A stretch of DNA of 64,000 bases from Ylistrum balloti. Its lineage: Eukaryota. Position numbers: made by a program. This document shows, piece by piece, positions 35,301 to 53,300 of this stretch. Numbering within the stretch: the stretch's first letter is position 1; every line of letters starts with the position of its first letter. Location of the stretch: assembly GCF_031769215.1 (NCBI RefSeq), contig NW_026782006.1:992001-1056000 (forward strand), written 5' to 3'.

Positions 35301-38300
35301 GAACTCTTCTTACCAGGAACGGTGCTTTCGATGAAATCCTTGATTTGATTTTCCCGTCCAACGAAGTTTACATCAAATATGTCCATCTGCATACATCTTC
35401 GTTTGTGTTCCACAAACTTCGTTTTGTACTTTTTTAACATATCCGCTACTCTGTTACGGCCTAGGTCACGATGCCAGTTTTGAAAATCTGTCACATTGAT
35501 CAGAAAATCAAGCATGTCTTCTTCTCCGAAATTATTCTTCAGAATTTGGAAATAATGGGTCGCATTTTGTATATTGTTTTTGGACAACCCGCCGAGTGAA
35601 GTCCTCGACAGATTGATAATCTCGTCAAATGTCAAGTCATCGCCATCCAAATCTGAGATGAGATCATTTACAATCACATCAAAGGGATCTAACCTAGTTT
35701 GATCTCCAAACGCAATACGGTCATCTTTTGTGTAAGCCATTGTGGTCAGATTCAGCTCGGCTCTGTAGGTATTTCTCTTTGCCCCAGAGGTGGATTCATA
35801 TATTTTGACAAACGTCTATATCTGGACCAAGAACTATGGAATATCCATCTACCAAGAAAATAAAAAAACAGGCAGGTAATGACAGCTCTGATATATACAA
35901 TGAGATTTTGTCCCTTATCACGGGCCTTCGGCGTCCATCGGCCGAAAGGATTATCGAGACACCAAAATTTACACCACTTTTTTCGATTTTAGTTTATAAC
36001 TTTGTATTTATTTGATGTTCTATGTGAAAATATGACAATGGCAGTGGCCCCCTCCAGGGGGACTCAGGAGGTGGGGTGAGGGCTCCTGGAAAAATTTGTA
36101 AACAAAGAAGCCTGTCGGTGCTAACATGGCTTAATTAAATGACCATGAATAACACAATGTTTAATTGTTGTTAGAAACAAGAAATAAAAGTGGGTGGCTA
36201 AAAGGCATCGTCCCATTCAGAATCTTCTTCATCGCTGACAGTGTCCTCTTACCTTTCCTTCATTTCATGGTCAAGGTTTAGCCGTTGCACAGCCACCCTC
36301 ACCTGGGACACAGGCTCACCAAGACTGCCAGATACAACAGCTGGGTCAGTTTGTATCCCGGAGTCCTGGACCTCGGTCAGAAGTTCCTTATCAATCATGG
36401 CATATGAAATATCACGTTTGGGAGGTGGTTTATAACTTTCTATTTATTTGATGTTCTATGTGAAAACTTGACAATTCGCTTGTCCGTACTGTCGATATTA
36501 CTTCAGCCATCATATATCTATTCCAGTAACACGCATCCAAAGAACAATTGTTTGTTAGGATCCAGTACGGATATTAGACCATAACCGTTAATATTACTTA
36601 CCAGGTTTCATATATGTATATCACTCATACTTATCATTGCAGTCCCATTATCTCTACTTTAATCTACTAATCAAACCTCACCTTCCAAGGTTCTGTGATC
36701 ACATTGGCCTGAATGAATATGACATTTCTCCTTTTTACGTAGTTTACATGTTTATAACATCCTCGGTAAGTGTAGGACTAGACGCTTTCGTAGAATTCTG
36801 ATCATTCAGTTTTTATGCAAAGGGGGTTTAATCTGCATTCGGTAAAAATGATATCCGATCTTATTGACACATTTTATGGTCTTTACTTGTTCTTTAAACG
36901 TTAAGCGATGAAAAAAATTGTTTACAGACCGACGATAGACTACGGACGTAAGGCGACTGTCCAGCATTTGAACTTGGGCTGAAAAAGATTACATATCAAA
37001 GGATGTTCTCAAAAAGATCGCGGTTTTTCTTTTAACACCCTCGACTGTATATGTTAAACGTAGTTACCTTATATATTTCTGACTACTATTTTTATCATGA
37101 ATTGTAGGTAACAATATTGTATATATATATACAGTCTACATATCAGGTGATTTCCTAGGTAAATACAGTCTACATACCAGGTGCTTTCCCAGATAAGTAC
37201 ATTCTACATACCAGTTGATTCCCCAGGTAAGTACCATAATCATACCATTTGATTCCCTAGGTAAGTACCATAATCATACCAGGTGATTTCCCAGGTAAGA
37301 ACAGTCTACATACCAGGTGCTTTCCCAGATAAGTACAGTCTACATACCAGATGATTTCCCAGGTATGTACAGCCTACATACCAAATGATTTACCAGGTAA
37401 GTACCGTCTACATACACAGGTGATTTTCAGGTAAGTACAGCCTACATAACAGGTGATTTCCCAGGTAAGTACAGCCTACATACCAAATAATTTCCCAGGT
37501 GTTAGTAAATTACAATAATGTCTATATGACATGCCTCGAGAGCGTTGCTCGAAACTATCACTGATACATGTTTACCTGCAAATCAACCTCCGACATCAAG
37601 GCCTTCCCGTTTTGACTACGGCTATTGGGTCTCCTAGAGAGACTTCTTCAGCAATTATTCAGGCTACAGCTCCGACAAGCACCTATACATTACAAGCCAA
37701 TAGATGAAGTTTCAGACTGGGTCCCCTACCTGTTTGTTCTGTCACGAACTATAAAATAGAGAACATTTCCTTCTATACTGTCCGAAACGGGAACGCAAAC
37801 ATGAAAAACATCTACCACAAATACTTTTAAACACCAGATATATACTATGAGTGTAGCTACTGATCCTGAAGTCGACAAGATTGTACCTTCCCGATAGTGC
37901 AAGAATTGTATAATCCAAGTGAAAACGACACGAGCAAAATCGAAAGAATCAGCCTATTTCTGGAATATTACCTTCATCTGCAAAGATCAAGTTTGATGGT
38001 CTCCAAATTGAAGCTAACCACTTCAGTGTACTATAACAAATGTCAGTTACTATTATGAGTCCAAGTAGGGGATATGTTGATTTAATGTAACTTCCTCTTC
38101 TAACATACAATTTGTATGACTGCGCATTTAATCTTTCCGTGATGTGCGCAGCGTTGACGTGTGCATCAATTAATTTTCATGCGTTAATGTGCATTACCCA
38201 TTTCTAAACTGGGGTACAAATCCAGTTTTAAGTTTCAGCTAAATTATGACGACCGACACAAAAAATTGAAAAAATGAGCTGCACTTACATATTTATCTGC

Positions 38301-50300: not shown

Positions 50301-53300
50301 ATCCACCAATCATTTGACGAAATCCAAAAAAAAGACACGCACTTCAACAATAACGGTAACACACAGATGTGTATGTGTATCGTTATATAACAGTGATGTT
50401 TATGTATCCAGGGTTTTCTATAAATATTTTAATAATAGGCTGTAAAATGGAGTAGGAGTCTGGCGAAGCCAGCCGACTGAGCCGTAACGCGGCGAGGCGG
50501 GGATGGTTTGAGGAGGGGGCACTGGCCCCCTCCAGGGGACTCAGGAGGTGGGGTGAGGGCTCCTGGAAAAAATTGTAAACAAAGAAGCCTGTCGGTGCTA
50601 ACATGGCTTAATTAAATGACCATGAATAACACAATGTTTAAAAGGCATCGTCCCATTCAGAATCTTCTTCATCGCTGACAGTGTCCTCTTACCTTTCCTT
50701 CATTTCATGGTCAAGGTTTAGCCGTTGCACAGCCACCCTCACCTGGGACACAGGCTCACCAAGACCGCCAGATACAACAGCTGGGTCAGTTTGTATCCCA
50801 GAGTCCTGGACCTCGGTCAGAAGTGCCTTATCAATCATGGCATATGAAATATCACGTTTGGGAGGTGGTTTATAACTTTCTATTTATTTTGATGTTCTAT
50901 GTGAAAATATGACAATTCGCTTGTCCGTACTGTCGATATTACTTCAGCCATCATATATCTACTCCAGTAACACGCATCCAAAGAACAATTGTTTGTTAGG
51001 ATCCAGTACGGATATTAGACCATAACCGTTAATATTACTTACCAGGTTTCATATATGTATATCACTCATACTTATCATTGCAGTCCCATTATCTCTACTT
51101 TAATCTACTAATCAAACCTCACCTTCCAAGGTTCTGTGATCACATTGGCCTGAATGAATATGACATTTCTCCTGTTTACGTAGTTTGCATGTTTATAATA
51201 TCCTCGGTAAGTGTAGGACTAGACACTTTCATAGAGTTCTGATCATTTCAGCTTTTATGCAAAGGGGGTTTAATCTGCATTCGGTAAAAATGATATCCGA
51301 TCTGATTGACACATTTTAAGGTCTTTACTTGTTCTTTAAACGTTAAGCGATGAAAAAAATTGTTTACAGACCGACGATAGACTACGGACGATAAGCGACT
51401 TGTCCAGCATTTGAACTTGGGCTGAAAAAGATTACATTTCAAAGGGTGTCCTCAAAAAGATCGCGGTTTTTCTTTTAACACCCTCGACTGTATATGTTAA
51501 ACGTAGTTACCTTATATATTTCTGACTACTATTTTTATCATGAATTGTAGGTAACAATATTGTATATATATATATACAGTCTACATACCAGGTGATTTCC
51601 TAGGTAAATACAGTCTACATACCAGGTGCTTTCCCAGATAAGTACATTCTACATACCAGTTGATTCCCCAGGTAAGTACCATAATCATACCATTTGATTC
51701 CCCAGGTAAGTACCATAATCATACCAGGTGATTTCCCAGGTAAGAACAGTCTACATACCAGGTGCTTTCCCAGATAAGTACAGTCTACATACCAGATGAT
51801 TTCCCAGGTATGTACAGCCTACATACCAAATGATTTACCAGGTAAGTACCGTCTACATACACAGGTGATTTTCCAGGTATGTACCGTCTACATACCAGGT
51901 GATTTTCCAGGTAAGTACTTCTTCATACCAGGTGATTTCCCAGGTAAGTACCGTCTACATGCCAGGTGATTACCCGGAGAAGTACCGTTTACATACCAGA
52001 TGATTTCCCAGGTAAATATATTCTACATACCAGGTGATTTCTCAGGTATGTACCGTCTACATACCAGTTGATTTCCCAGGTAAGTACCGCCTACATACCA
52101 GGTGATTTCCCAGGTAAGTACCGTTTACATACCGGTTGATTTCCCAGGTAAGTACCGTTTACATACCGGTTGATTTCCCAGGAAAACACCGTTTACGTAC
52201 CAGTGATTTACCAGGTAAATACAGACTACATACCAGGGGGTTTTCAGGTAAGTACAGCCTACATACCAGGTGATTTTCAGGTAAGTACAGCCTACATAAC
52301 AGGTGATTTCCCAGGTAAGTACAGCCTACATACCAAATAATTTCCCAGGTGTTAGTAAATTACAATAATGTCTATATGACATGCCTCGAGAGCGTCGCTC
52401 GAAACTATCACTGATACATGTTTACCTGCAAATCAACCTCCGACATCAAGGCCTTCCCGTTTTGACTACGGCTATTGGGTCTCCTAGAGAGACTTCTTCA
52501 GCAATTATTCAGGCTACAGCTCCGACAAGCACCTATACATTACAAGCCAATAGATGAAGTTTCAGACTGGGTCCCCTACCTGTTTGTTCTGTCACGAACT
52601 ATAAAATAGAGAACATTTCCTTCTATACTGTCCGAAACGGGAACGCAAACATGAAAAACATCTACCACAAATACTTTTAAACACCAGATATATACTATGA
52701 GTGTAGCTACTGATCCTGAAGTCGACAAGATTGTACCTTCTCGATAGTGCAAGAACTGCATAATCCAAGTGAAAACGGTAACATTATCGGTATATCACAG
52801 TAATGTTTATGTATCGGTATATCACAGTAATGTTTATGTATCGGTATATCACAGTAATGTTTATGTGTAGGTATATAACAGTAATGTCTATGTATTGGTA
52901 TACCACATTAATGTTTATGTATCGGTATATCACAGTAATGTTTATGTGTAGGTATATAACAGTAATGTCTATGTATTGGTATACCACATTAATGTTTAGG
53001 TATCGGTATATCACATTAATGTTTAGGTATCGGTATATCATAGTGGTGTTTATGTATCGGTATATCACAGTGTTGTATGTATACCACAGTGGGTATACGG
53101 TATATCACAGTAATGTGTGTGTATATGTATCGGTATATCACAGTAATGTTTATGTGTCACAGTGTTGTTTATGTATATACCACAGTGGTGTATGTATGTA
53201 TATCAGTAATGTATGTGTGGTATATCACAGTAATGTTTATGTGTAGGTATATAACAGTAATGTCTATGTATTGGTATATCACAGTAATGTTTATGTGTAG

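What the first reader, a model, noticed from the sequence alone, without database searches (positions are those of the whole stretch)
36046..52777. 16.7-kb near-identical tandem array sitting on the NLR promoter/5' region
Seen: the array begins only ~200 bp upstream of the NLR 5' UTR acceptor. The NLR needs at least one further upstream exon, and the nearest strong minus-strand donor (AAG|GTAAGA, about 36251) lies in the repeat unit. Copies 3-5 look identical. Inference: the 5' exon or promoter cassette may be multiplied about sixfold, giving a copy-number-variable regulator of an immune gene.
Basis: partly seen in the sequence, partly recalled or inferred. Interest (0 to 1): 0.65.

Follow-up and report, generated by a model that had tools for sequence, protein, structure and literature searches.

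The report
Young non-coding 3-kb tandem array
A real, recently expanded, non-coding tandem array of 3-kb units lies just upstream of a scallop NB-ARC-TPR gene, and nothing available here shows that it carries or controls that gene's start.

Summary
Homology to the repeat unit starts at 36046 and ends at 52777. There are six copies in register of a 2,991-bp unit. Copies 4 and 5 are identical, copy 3 differs by one G in a G-run, and the edge copies differ by 0.3-2%. Each unit holds a 34-bp minisatellite. The window is from the scallop Ylistrum balloti, not human.

The gene is NB-ARC plus TPR, with no LRR and NACHT below cut-off. It is NLR-like, not a bona fide NLR.

The unit has no ORF of 90 aa or more, no Pfam, Rfam or tRNA hit, and no terminal inverted repeats. 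One LRR-like protein hit proved to be chance.

The edges suggest in-situ origin. A 48-bp piece P occurs 7 times, a 441-bp piece J lies only between units, and the right-flank 27-bp minisatellite matches the unit's end.

The upstream acceptor is strong and a consensus donor sits in 6 of 6 units. But only 48 bp are shared with the gene's 5' region, and no transcript data were available. The promoter or 5'-exon idea cannot be decided here. Tandem repeats cover 48.7% of the window, so this looks like an ordinary macrosatellite.

The parts
35992..36039 (.). P0: a 48-bp copy of unit piece P (unit positions 889-937) in the left flank. I read it as the remnant of a seventh, leftmost unit.
   Evidence: 95.9% over 49 bp. 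(homology confined to 48 bp). (a 26-nt core found 7 times, 0 expected by chance).
36046..38087 (.). Copy 1, truncated. It starts inside the loop of a GC hairpin at unit position about 541. Its minisatellite is 439 bp shorter, and it has 37 extra bp at 36162-36198.
38088..41009 (.). Copy 2 (2,922 bp). It has 10 mismatches to copy 4 in the left part and two 34-bp monomer deletions.
41010..43999 (.). Copy 3 (2,990 bp). It differs from copy 4 by one G in a G-run.
44000..46990 (.). Copy 4 (2,991 bp), the reference unit used here.
46991..49981 (.). Copy 5, identical to copy 4 at 2991 of 2991 bases.
49982..52777 (.). Copy 6, ending at unit position 2831. The junction to the next feature shares the four bases AACG.
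45594..46403 (.). 34-bp minisatellite inside the unit, shown for copy 4. The others lie at 37130-37500, 39681-40422, 42603-43412, 48585-49394 and 51575-52350.
44447..44887 (.). Piece J (unit positions 448-888, shown for copy 4). It is GC-richer, is found only between units (6 copies), and holds the 64-aa open frame, the donor-like site and the 9-bp GC hairpin (44531-44552).
36247..36270 (-). Donor-like AAAG|GTAAGA (last exon base 36253) within a 24-nt segment conserved in 6 of 6 copies.
52785..54023 (.). 27-bp minisatellite, 46 copies. It is related to about 2 monomers at unit positions 366-447, which I read as the expanded end of the last unit.
35849..35870 (-). Acceptor-like pyrimidine tract plus AG, 108 nt upstream of the ATG.
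35299..35740 (-). First coding exon of the NB-ARC-TPR gene (LOC132545765). The ATG is at 35740. The exon end at 35299 is my reading of the sequence.
15095..35740 (-). Coding span of the NB-ARC-TPR gene, seen as 9 tblastn pieces: 35740-35288, 34810-34694, 34447-34286, 33254-33129, 29532-29383, 27711-26065, 24186-24007, 22291-21848 and 15304-15095.

Best explanation
This is a young, non-coding macrosatellite. It is a head-to-tail array of a composite 2,991-bp unit that itself contains a 34-bp minisatellite. I infer that it arose in place in an unusually repeat-prone stretch of scallop DNA and was expanded and homogenised by unequal exchange or replication slippage.

Inferred history. An ancestral single-copy segment P-B of about 2.55 kb lay next to the gene. 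P is the 48-bp piece. B contains the 34-bp minisatellite and ends in a 27-bp motif. The segment was duplicated with a 441-bp insert J at the junction, and the P-B-J unit was then amplified to at least seven units. The leftmost unit later lost B and the first roughly 87 bp of J, with the break in the loop of a GC hairpin. The last unit lost about 530 bp at an AACG microhomology, and its 27-bp motif expanded to 46 copies. The identical central triplet c3-c5 is the most recent expansion.

The array lies in the 5' flank, or possibly the first intron, of an NB-ARC-TPR STAND-ATPase gene. I judge it most likely neutral. Any effect on the gene is unproven.

Shown: the anatomy, the identities, and the lack of coding or RNA-family content. 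Inferred: the mechanism, the order of events and the neutrality.
For: - Exact boundaries and six copies in register.
- A divergence gradient, with edge copies most different and c3-c5 identical. c2 and c6 share variants at 44015 and 44944 that the central copies lack.
- Length differences between copies are whole 34-bp monomers.
- No ORF of 90 aa or more lies between 35816 and 52781. Among 21 unit ORFs of 40 aa or more, the best Pfam E-value is 0.064.
- 0 Rfam matches at gathering score for the whole window, and 0 at E<=1 for 35700-41100. 0 tRNAs.
- No terminal inverted repeats and no inverted copy of the unit.
- Both flanks carry pieces of the unit. P is found 7 times, once in the left flank. 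The right-flank 27-bp minisatellite gives 30 of the 31 BLAST hits outside the array, all to unit positions 366-447. No J-like sequence lies outside the array.
- A 9-bp GC hairpin sits at the left breakpoint (z = -3.93, 1 of 200 shuffles folds as well).
- The locus is saturated with tandem repeats: 31,178 of 64,000 bases (48.7%), including eight other minisatellite arrays with periods of 21-44 bp.
Against: - A function cannot be excluded. The array sits 196 bp from a top-0.8% acceptor-like site, and each unit carries three strict donor-like sites on the gene's strand.
- The 'J only at junctions' model is more parsimonious than an ancestral P-B-J unit by only one event.
- The array does not hold a whole number of units (it starts at unit position about 541 and ends at 2831). 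That would also fit insertion of a concatemer.
- I could not search the rest of the scallop genome, so a dispersed (transposon) origin of the unit or of J is untested.
- Three identical 3-kb copies are also what an assembler or polisher can produce.
Confidence: 0.62

Rival explanations
1. Each unit carries a promoter and a non-coding first exon: P with its TATAAA, then part of J ending at the donor at 36253. That exon splices to the acceptor at 35850, so the gene's start cassette is present about six times and copy number tunes expression.
For: - The acceptor-like site has 15 of 19 pyrimidines; only 28 of 3,492 minus-strand AG sites score as high.
- The donor segment is identical in 6 of 6 units.
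- 18 of the 20 strict minus-strand donors in the window lie in the array.
- TATAAA at 36434 lies about 180 nt upstream of the donor, and the same 48-bp piece also lies next to the gene (TATAAA at 35998).
Against: - No transcript data were available.
- Only 1 of the gene's 8 real donors fits the strict pattern (my reading).
- TATAAA occurs 44 times on this strand.
- No homology to the gene's 5' region beyond 48 bp.
- No CpG-island-like feature in the unit.
- In the junction model, J was not originally next to the gene.
- The proximal TATATAT at 35897 offers a TSS that needs no upstream exon.
Confidence: 0.15
2. The array is real, but the assembled copy number, or the identity of copies 3-5, is an assembly or polishing artefact.
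For: c4 and c5 are identical over 2,991 bp. The only c3/c4 difference is one base in a homopolymer run, a typical long-read error class.
Against: The flanking copies carry distinct substitutions and monomer indels that anchor the array. There are no N in the window. The database lists the gene's protein on a 1.73-Mb contig. The G4 variant is shared by c3 and c6, which suggests a real variant.
Confidence: 0.15
3. The array is a concatemer of a mobile or circular element, made by rolling-circle or extrachromosomal-circle amplification and inserted upstream of the gene.
For: The array starts and ends at unrelated unit positions (about 541 and 2831), so it is not a whole number of units. J is a discrete GC-richer block.
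Against: - Both flanks contain unit-derived sequence (P0 and the 27-bp motif), which fits in-situ origin.
- No terminal inverted repeats, no coding capacity and no second copy elsewhere in the 64-kb window.
Confidence: 0.07
4. The unit is a decayed array of leucine-rich-repeat exons, the 3' part of a former NLR-type gene.
For: The 64-aa frame at 44709-44903 (minus strand) hit one LRR_6 protein, P0014, at E = 2.3e-5 among 1.84 billion representatives. A profile built from P0014's own repeats scores 12.9-13.8 bits on 6 of 6 copies.
Against: - The E-value sums four stretches on near-identical repeats.
- The best single BLASTP alignment is 24 bits.
- A broader profile of 87 distinct repeats from 10 proteins scores 3.4-5.4 bits (E 1.2-4.1). 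That is the same as unrelated ORFs of the window.
- Pfam finds no LRR.
- Three frames are open across the same 200 bp.
- No acceptor lies at the equivalent exon start (my reading).
Confidence: 0.03

Closest known systems
Macrosatellites (tandem repeats with units above 500 bp; human D4Z4, DXZ4 and RS447 as examples)
   Same: A kb-sized composite unit, head-to-tail copies, near-identity of neighbouring copies, and expected copy-number variability. The definition comes from passages read in PMC12692304: monomers above 500 bp, with a possible composite structure.
   Different: Only six to seven units, in a mollusc, with no ORF in the unit. From memory, D4Z4 and RS447 carry genes, DXZ4 binds CTCF, and those arrays have tens of copies. 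No chromatin or population data exist here.
Tandem segmental duplication with a junction insertion, expanded by unequal crossing-over
   Same: Flanks that carry the ends of the unit. An extra block (J) found only between units. Microhomology (AACG) and a hairpin at the deletion breakpoints. Edge copies older than central ones.
   Different: The order of events is inferred from one haplotype. No outgroup locus could be examined.
Promoter-proximal VNTRs that modulate expression (recalled examples: INS VNTR, MAOA uVNTR)
   Same: A tandem repeat within a few hundred bp of a gene's 5' end.
   Different: Those units are tens of bp and their effects were measured. Here the unit is 3 kb and no effect is shown.
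Transposon-borne satellite arrays of bivalves (Helitron-like elements and MITE-like 'pearl' elements, recalled)
   Same: Bivalve tandem repeats are often embedded in mobile elements.
   Different: No terminal inverted repeats, no terminal hairpin pattern and no dispersed copy in the window. Genome-wide dispersal was not testable.
NB-ARC/NACHT STAND proteins with TPR repeats in invertebrates (coral repertoire, PMC4083563)
   Same: The neighbouring gene has NB-ARC followed by TPR. Passages read in PMC4083563 describe such architectures among Nod-like proteins of Acropora.
   Different: Bona fide NLRs are NACHT plus LRR (passages read in PMC3879445). This protein has no LRR hit and its NACHT score is below cut-off. 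No immune function has been tested.

Membership tests
Macrosatellite | Repeat unit longer than 500 bp | tested here: met
   The unit is 2,991 bp. Definition from PMC12692304.
Macrosatellite | Head-to-tail tandem copies with high identity | tested here: met
   Six copies in register, 98-100% identical outside the minisatellite, with no inverted copy.
Macrosatellite | Copy number varies between individuals | not testable with these tools
   No reads or other haplotypes were available. Identical central copies and monomer indels make it likely.
5' exon / promoter cassette of the neighbouring gene | Splice donor on the gene's strand in every unit | tested here: met
   The 24-nt segment holding AAAG|GTAAGA is unchanged in 6 of 6 copies.
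5' exon / promoter cassette of the neighbouring gene | Transcription start in the unit and splicing to the gene's first coding exon | not testable with these tools
   No RNA or TSS data. TATA-like motifs are too common to count as evidence (44 TATAAA and 150 TATATA on the minus strand).
5' exon / promoter cassette of the neighbouring gene | Unit derived from the gene's own 5' region | tested here: not met
   Only 48 bp are shared. The remainder scores 10 against a shuffled mean of 10.4.
Bona fide NLR (NACHT-LRR) | NACHT domain | tested here: not met
   NACHT scores 21.6 bits, below the 26.7 cut-off. NB-ARC scores 39.7 bits, above its 23.5 cut-off.
Bona fide NLR (NACHT-LRR) | C-terminal leucine-rich repeats | tested here: not met
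   No LRR family among the 11 Pfam hits of P0003. TPR_12 and TPR_10 are found instead.
Bona fide NLR (NACHT-LRR) | N-terminal effector (death-fold) domain | tested here: inconclusive
   No Pfam hit. The AlphaFold2 model of residues 1-125 is all-helical but has mean pLDDT 41.5. The Atlas gave no usable hit.
Transposable-element-derived array | Terminal inverted repeats or element-encoded protein | tested here: not met
Transposable-element-derived array | Dispersed copies elsewhere in the genome | not testable with these tools
   No eukaryotic genome collection was at hand. There are none in the other 47 kb of the window.

The most novel reading that the evidence does not exclude
The 48-bp P piece with its TATAAA is the core promoter of the NB-ARC-TPR gene. 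The duplication copied it seven times, each copy now followed by J with a consensus donor. The array would then supply up to six extra start sites and first exons that splice to the acceptor at 35850. That would make a copy-number dial for a STAND-type receptor gene in a bivalve.
Probability: 0.1. Interest if true: 0.55.

Novelty: new member of a known kind. Interest (0 to 1): 0.25.

Why it matters
If it is only a macrosatellite, its main value is practical. It is a likely copy-number-variable marker, and a place where assemblies and gene models of this scallop can go wrong. It is also a clean example of how a kb-scale array is born: a junction insert, breakpoints at a hairpin and at a microhomology, and a young central expansion. 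If the units do start transcripts of the neighbouring gene, it would link structural variation to dosage of an innate-immunity-type receptor in bivalves. From memory, bivalve immune gene content is known to vary strongly between individuals.

Tried and rejected
- LRR-exon origin of the unit. The one library-wide hit, P0014 (E 2.3e-5), did not survive a broader family profile (3.4-5.4 bits). Rejected as a chance match inflated by near-identical repeats.
- RNA genes in the unit. Rfam at gathering score (whole window) and at E<=1 (35700-41100) gave 0 matches, and there were 0 tRNAs.
- Protein domains in the unit. 21 ORFs of 40 aa or more gave nothing better than E 0.064.
- Transposon ends. The inverted-repeat scans of the unit and both flanks gave only minisatellite self-matches and short chance pairs.
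- CpG-island-like promoter. None found. GC is 0.33-0.51 and CpG o/e is unremarkable in 200-bp steps.
- Fold of the gene's N-terminal 125 residues. The Atlas had no usable hit. The AlphaFold2 model had pLDDT 41.5, too poor for a fold search, so none was run.
- Other genes next to the array. 25 further ORFs were scanned. Only LINE-type reverse-transcriptase and endonuclease fragments at 57035-60783 and weak sub-threshold hits turned up.
- Literature. 'Ylistrum balloti' plus 'genome' gave 14 papers. The 10 listed showed mitochondrial or comparative work and no description of this locus (listing and abstract starts only). 'macrosatellite' plus 'bivalve' gave 2 papers, neither on scallop arrays. 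'scallop' plus 'minisatellite' plus 'tandem repeats' gave 12 papers, 10 listed, none opened.
- Not used. The genome-contig scan holds bacteria and archaea only. The phage, plasmid and E. coli collections are irrelevant.
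Full report
**Source and scope**

The longest open frame of the neighbouring gene (26044-27690, minus strand) is 100% identical to 'uncharacterized protein LOC132545765 [Ylistrum balloti]'. That protein is P0003, 1,137 aa. The next hits are from Pecten maximus (P0004, 62%) and Mizuhopecten yessoensis (P0005, 60%). I therefore take the window for scallop DNA, not human.

The window has no N. Searches used single exons or the database's own protein P0003. The joined step was left out.

**The observation**

Tandem Repeats Finder shows six blocks of a 34-bp minisatellite spaced about 3 kb apart. The repeat finder shows six copies of every non-minisatellite segment, at spacings of 2548-2549, 2921-2922, 2990-2991, 2991 and 2956-2990 bp. 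BLAST of one unit (44000-46990, 2,991 bp) places the copies as follows:

| Copy | Coordinates | Note |
|---|---|---|
| c1 | 36046-38087 | truncated on the left |
| c2 | 38088-41009 | 2,922 bp |
| c3 | 41010-43999 | one gap against c4 |
| c4 | 44000-46990 | reference unit |
| c5 | 46991-49981 | 100% identical to c4 |
| c6 | 49982-52777 | ends at unit position 2831 |

- **Boundaries.** Edge alignments put the limits of homology exactly at 36046 and 52777.
- **Copy differences.** Outside the minisatellite, c1, c2 and c6 differ from c4 by 20, 10 and 2 mismatches in the left part and by 1, 0 and 3 in the right part. c3, c4 and c5 have none.
- **The single c3/c4 difference.** It is GGGG against GGGGG at 44554, a variant that c6 shares.
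- **Shared variants.** c2 and c6 share substitutions at 44015 and 44944 that the central copies lack. The edge copies are therefore older, and c3-c5 are a young expansion.
- **Length differences.** They are whole monomers: 439 bp missing in c1, 34 + 34 bp in c2 and 34 bp in c6.

**What the unit contains**

Nothing recognisable was found.
- No open frame of 90 aa or more lies between 35816 and 52781. The longest frame in a unit is 77 aa.
- Of 21 unit frames of 40 aa or more, none matches Pfam better than E 0.064.
- Rfam gives 0 matches at gathering score for the window and 0 at E<=1 for 35700-41100. There are no tRNAs.
- There are no terminal inverted repeats and no inverted copies.
- There is no CpG-island-like segment.

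One lead arose and failed. That protein is P0014, 1,778 aa, unnamed, rich in LRR_6. The hit has E = 2.3e-5 and is spread over four stretches.

P0014's repeats are nearly identical to one another, so the four stretches are not independent. The best single alignment is 24 bits. A profile of P0014's own 13 repeats scores 12.9-13.8 bits on 6 of 6 copies. A broader profile of 87 distinct repeats from ten family members (P0014-P0023) scores only 3.4-5.4 bits, E 1.2-4.1 among 1,462 window frames. Unrelated frames of the window score the same. I reject the LRR reading.

**Anatomy of the edges and the likely origin**

A sensitive BLAST of the unit against the rest of the window gives 31 hits outside the array.
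- One is a 49-bp match at 35992-36039 to unit positions 889-937. I call this piece P.
- The other 30 lie in the 27-bp minisatellite at 52785-54023 (46 copies). They match about two monomers at unit positions 366-447.

P therefore occurs seven times. Beyond P, the gene's 5' region has no similarity to the unit: score 10, shuffled mean 10.4, 152 of 200 shuffles as high.

Call B the stretch from 938 round to 447, and call J the stretch 448-888. The locus then reads: flank, P, J' (lacking about 87 bp), five times P-B-J, then P-B*, then flank. B* lacks about 530 bp and ends in the expanded 27-bp motif.

J is thus seen only between units: 6 J for 7 P. The simplest history is an ancestral single copy P-B, a duplication with a 441-bp insert at the junction, amplification, and two later deletions.
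- The left deletion ends in the loop of a perfect 9-bp GC hairpin (44531-44552 in copy 4). Its folding z-score is -3.93, and 1 of 200 shuffles folds as well.
- The right deletion junction shares AACG.

This history is inference. An ancestral P-B-J unit needs only one more event. No outgroup locus could be examined.

**Surroundings**

Tandem repeats cover 31,178 of 64,000 bases, or 48.7%. Besides this array and the 27-bp block there are arrays of period 30, 31, 34, 30, 21, 27, 42 and 44 bp. Several lie in the gene's introns. The region as a whole is repeat-prone, so an array beside the gene is not in itself remarkable.

The only other coding remnants are LINE-type reverse-transcriptase and endonuclease fragments at 57035-60783 on the minus strand. 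Twelve further frames gave nothing above cut-off.

**The gene**

P0003 maps to nine minus-strand pieces from 35740 to 15095.
- **Domains.** Pfam gives NB-ARC at residues 144-387 (39.7 bits, cut-off 23.5). TPR_12 and TPR_10 fall near residues 771-833. NACHT is below cut-off (21.6 against 26.7). There is no LRR.
- **Classification.** By the definition used in PMC3879445, bona fide NLRs are NACHT-LRR, and NACHT or NB-ARC proteins with TPR are kept apart (passages read). This is an NLR-like STAND ATPase. It is of the kind listed among coral 'Nod-like' proteins in PMC4083563 (passages read).
- **N-terminus.** The first 125 residues have no family hit. The model is helical but has pLDDT 41.5, so a death fold is neither shown nor excluded.
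- **Start codon.** The start Met aligns with that of the Pecten protein. The frame is closed just upstream, at 35816-35818. No upstream coding exon is needed.

On the minus strand, a T-rich tract followed by AG ends at 35849. With 15 of 19 pyrimidines, only 28 of 3,492 AG sites score as high, and it is better than the gene's own acceptors, which have 7-14. A 5'-UTR intron ending there is plausible.

Strict donors (AG|GTRAG) on that strand number 20 in the window. Eighteen are in the array, three per unit, and the nearest is at 36253. Its 24-nt context is unchanged in 6 of 6 copies.

Several points weigh against relying on this.
- Only 1 of the gene's eight real donors fits the strict pattern, and 4 of 8 have GTRAG (my reading). 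Weaker donors elsewhere cannot be excluded.
- TATAAA is present at 36434 and, within P0, at 35998. It occurs 44 times on this strand, so it carries little weight.
- A TATATAT at 35897-35891 could drive a proximal start that reads through the 'acceptor'.

Without transcript or TSS data, three placements of the start remain open: proximal to the array, in the array, or beyond it. I could not obtain the RefSeq mRNA coordinates, reads, other haplotypes or the orthologous loci.

**Verdict**

The best reading is an ordinary, young, probably copy-number-variable macrosatellite that arose in place in a repeat-saturated locus. It lies in the 5' flank or the first intron of an NB-ARC-TPR gene. The regulatory interpretation can be neither supported nor refuted here. 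I give it about 0.15, and about 0.10 for the sharper version in which the 48-bp P piece is the gene's multiplied core promoter.

Noticed in passing
window 15823-21827 and 22491-23968: A 6-kb minisatellite (42 bp x 143) fills most of the gene's last intron and ends 21 bp from the exon at 21848-22291. A 44-bp x 34 array in the preceding intron ends 39 bp from the exon at 24007-24186. Repeats this close to splice sites could disturb splicing or gene models.
   Followed up: no
window 1-143, 3273-4765, 6137-7300, 10905-12413, 12727-13731, 14195-14604: Six more minisatellite arrays with periods of 30, 31, 34, 30, 21 and 27 bp. Together with the array, tandem repeats cover 48.7% of the window. The 30-bp array at the window's start is 100% regular (4.8 copies).
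   Followed up: partly
window 57035-60783, minus strand: Three separate open frames match the reverse transcriptase family RVT_1 (E 2.2e-07 and 1.6e-13) and, below cut-off, endonuclease families. This is a broken LINE-type retrotransposon upstream of the array.
   Followed up: no
window 44531-44552 (and the same place in the other units): A perfect 9-bp GC hairpin, GGAGGGGGC-ACTG-GCCCCCTCC (z -3.93). The truncated first copy begins in its loop at 36046, and the only c3/c4 difference is a G-run length just beside it.
   Followed up: partly
window 36162-36198: Copy 1 has 37 bp that copy 4 lacks, just downstream (on the minus strand) of the donor-like site.
   Followed up: no
window 35741-35848, minus strand: The putative 5' leader holds two upstream ATGs: at 35848 (4 codons, directly after the acceptor-like AG) and at 35799 (15 codons).
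   Followed up: no
P0005 (Mizuhopecten yessoensis) against P0003: After its first two residues, the Mizuhopecten model lacks the stretch matching about the first 210 residues of P0003, including the P-loop (residues 152-161), and it has no NB-ARC hit. It is probably an incomplete gene model.
   Followed up: no
P0003 residues about 920-1137 (exons at 21848-22291 and 15095-15304): The C-terminal fifth of the protein is Ser/Asp/Glu/Arg-rich with no family hit, but it has conserved blocks in all three scallops, for example RLSRQESFE and TSNTSGSSEDVF.
   Followed up: no
window 45594-46403 and its copies, plus strand: The 34-bp monomer contains CCAGGTAAG. This accounts for most of the 67 strict donor-like sites on the plus strand of the window, against 20 on the minus strand.
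   Followed up: no
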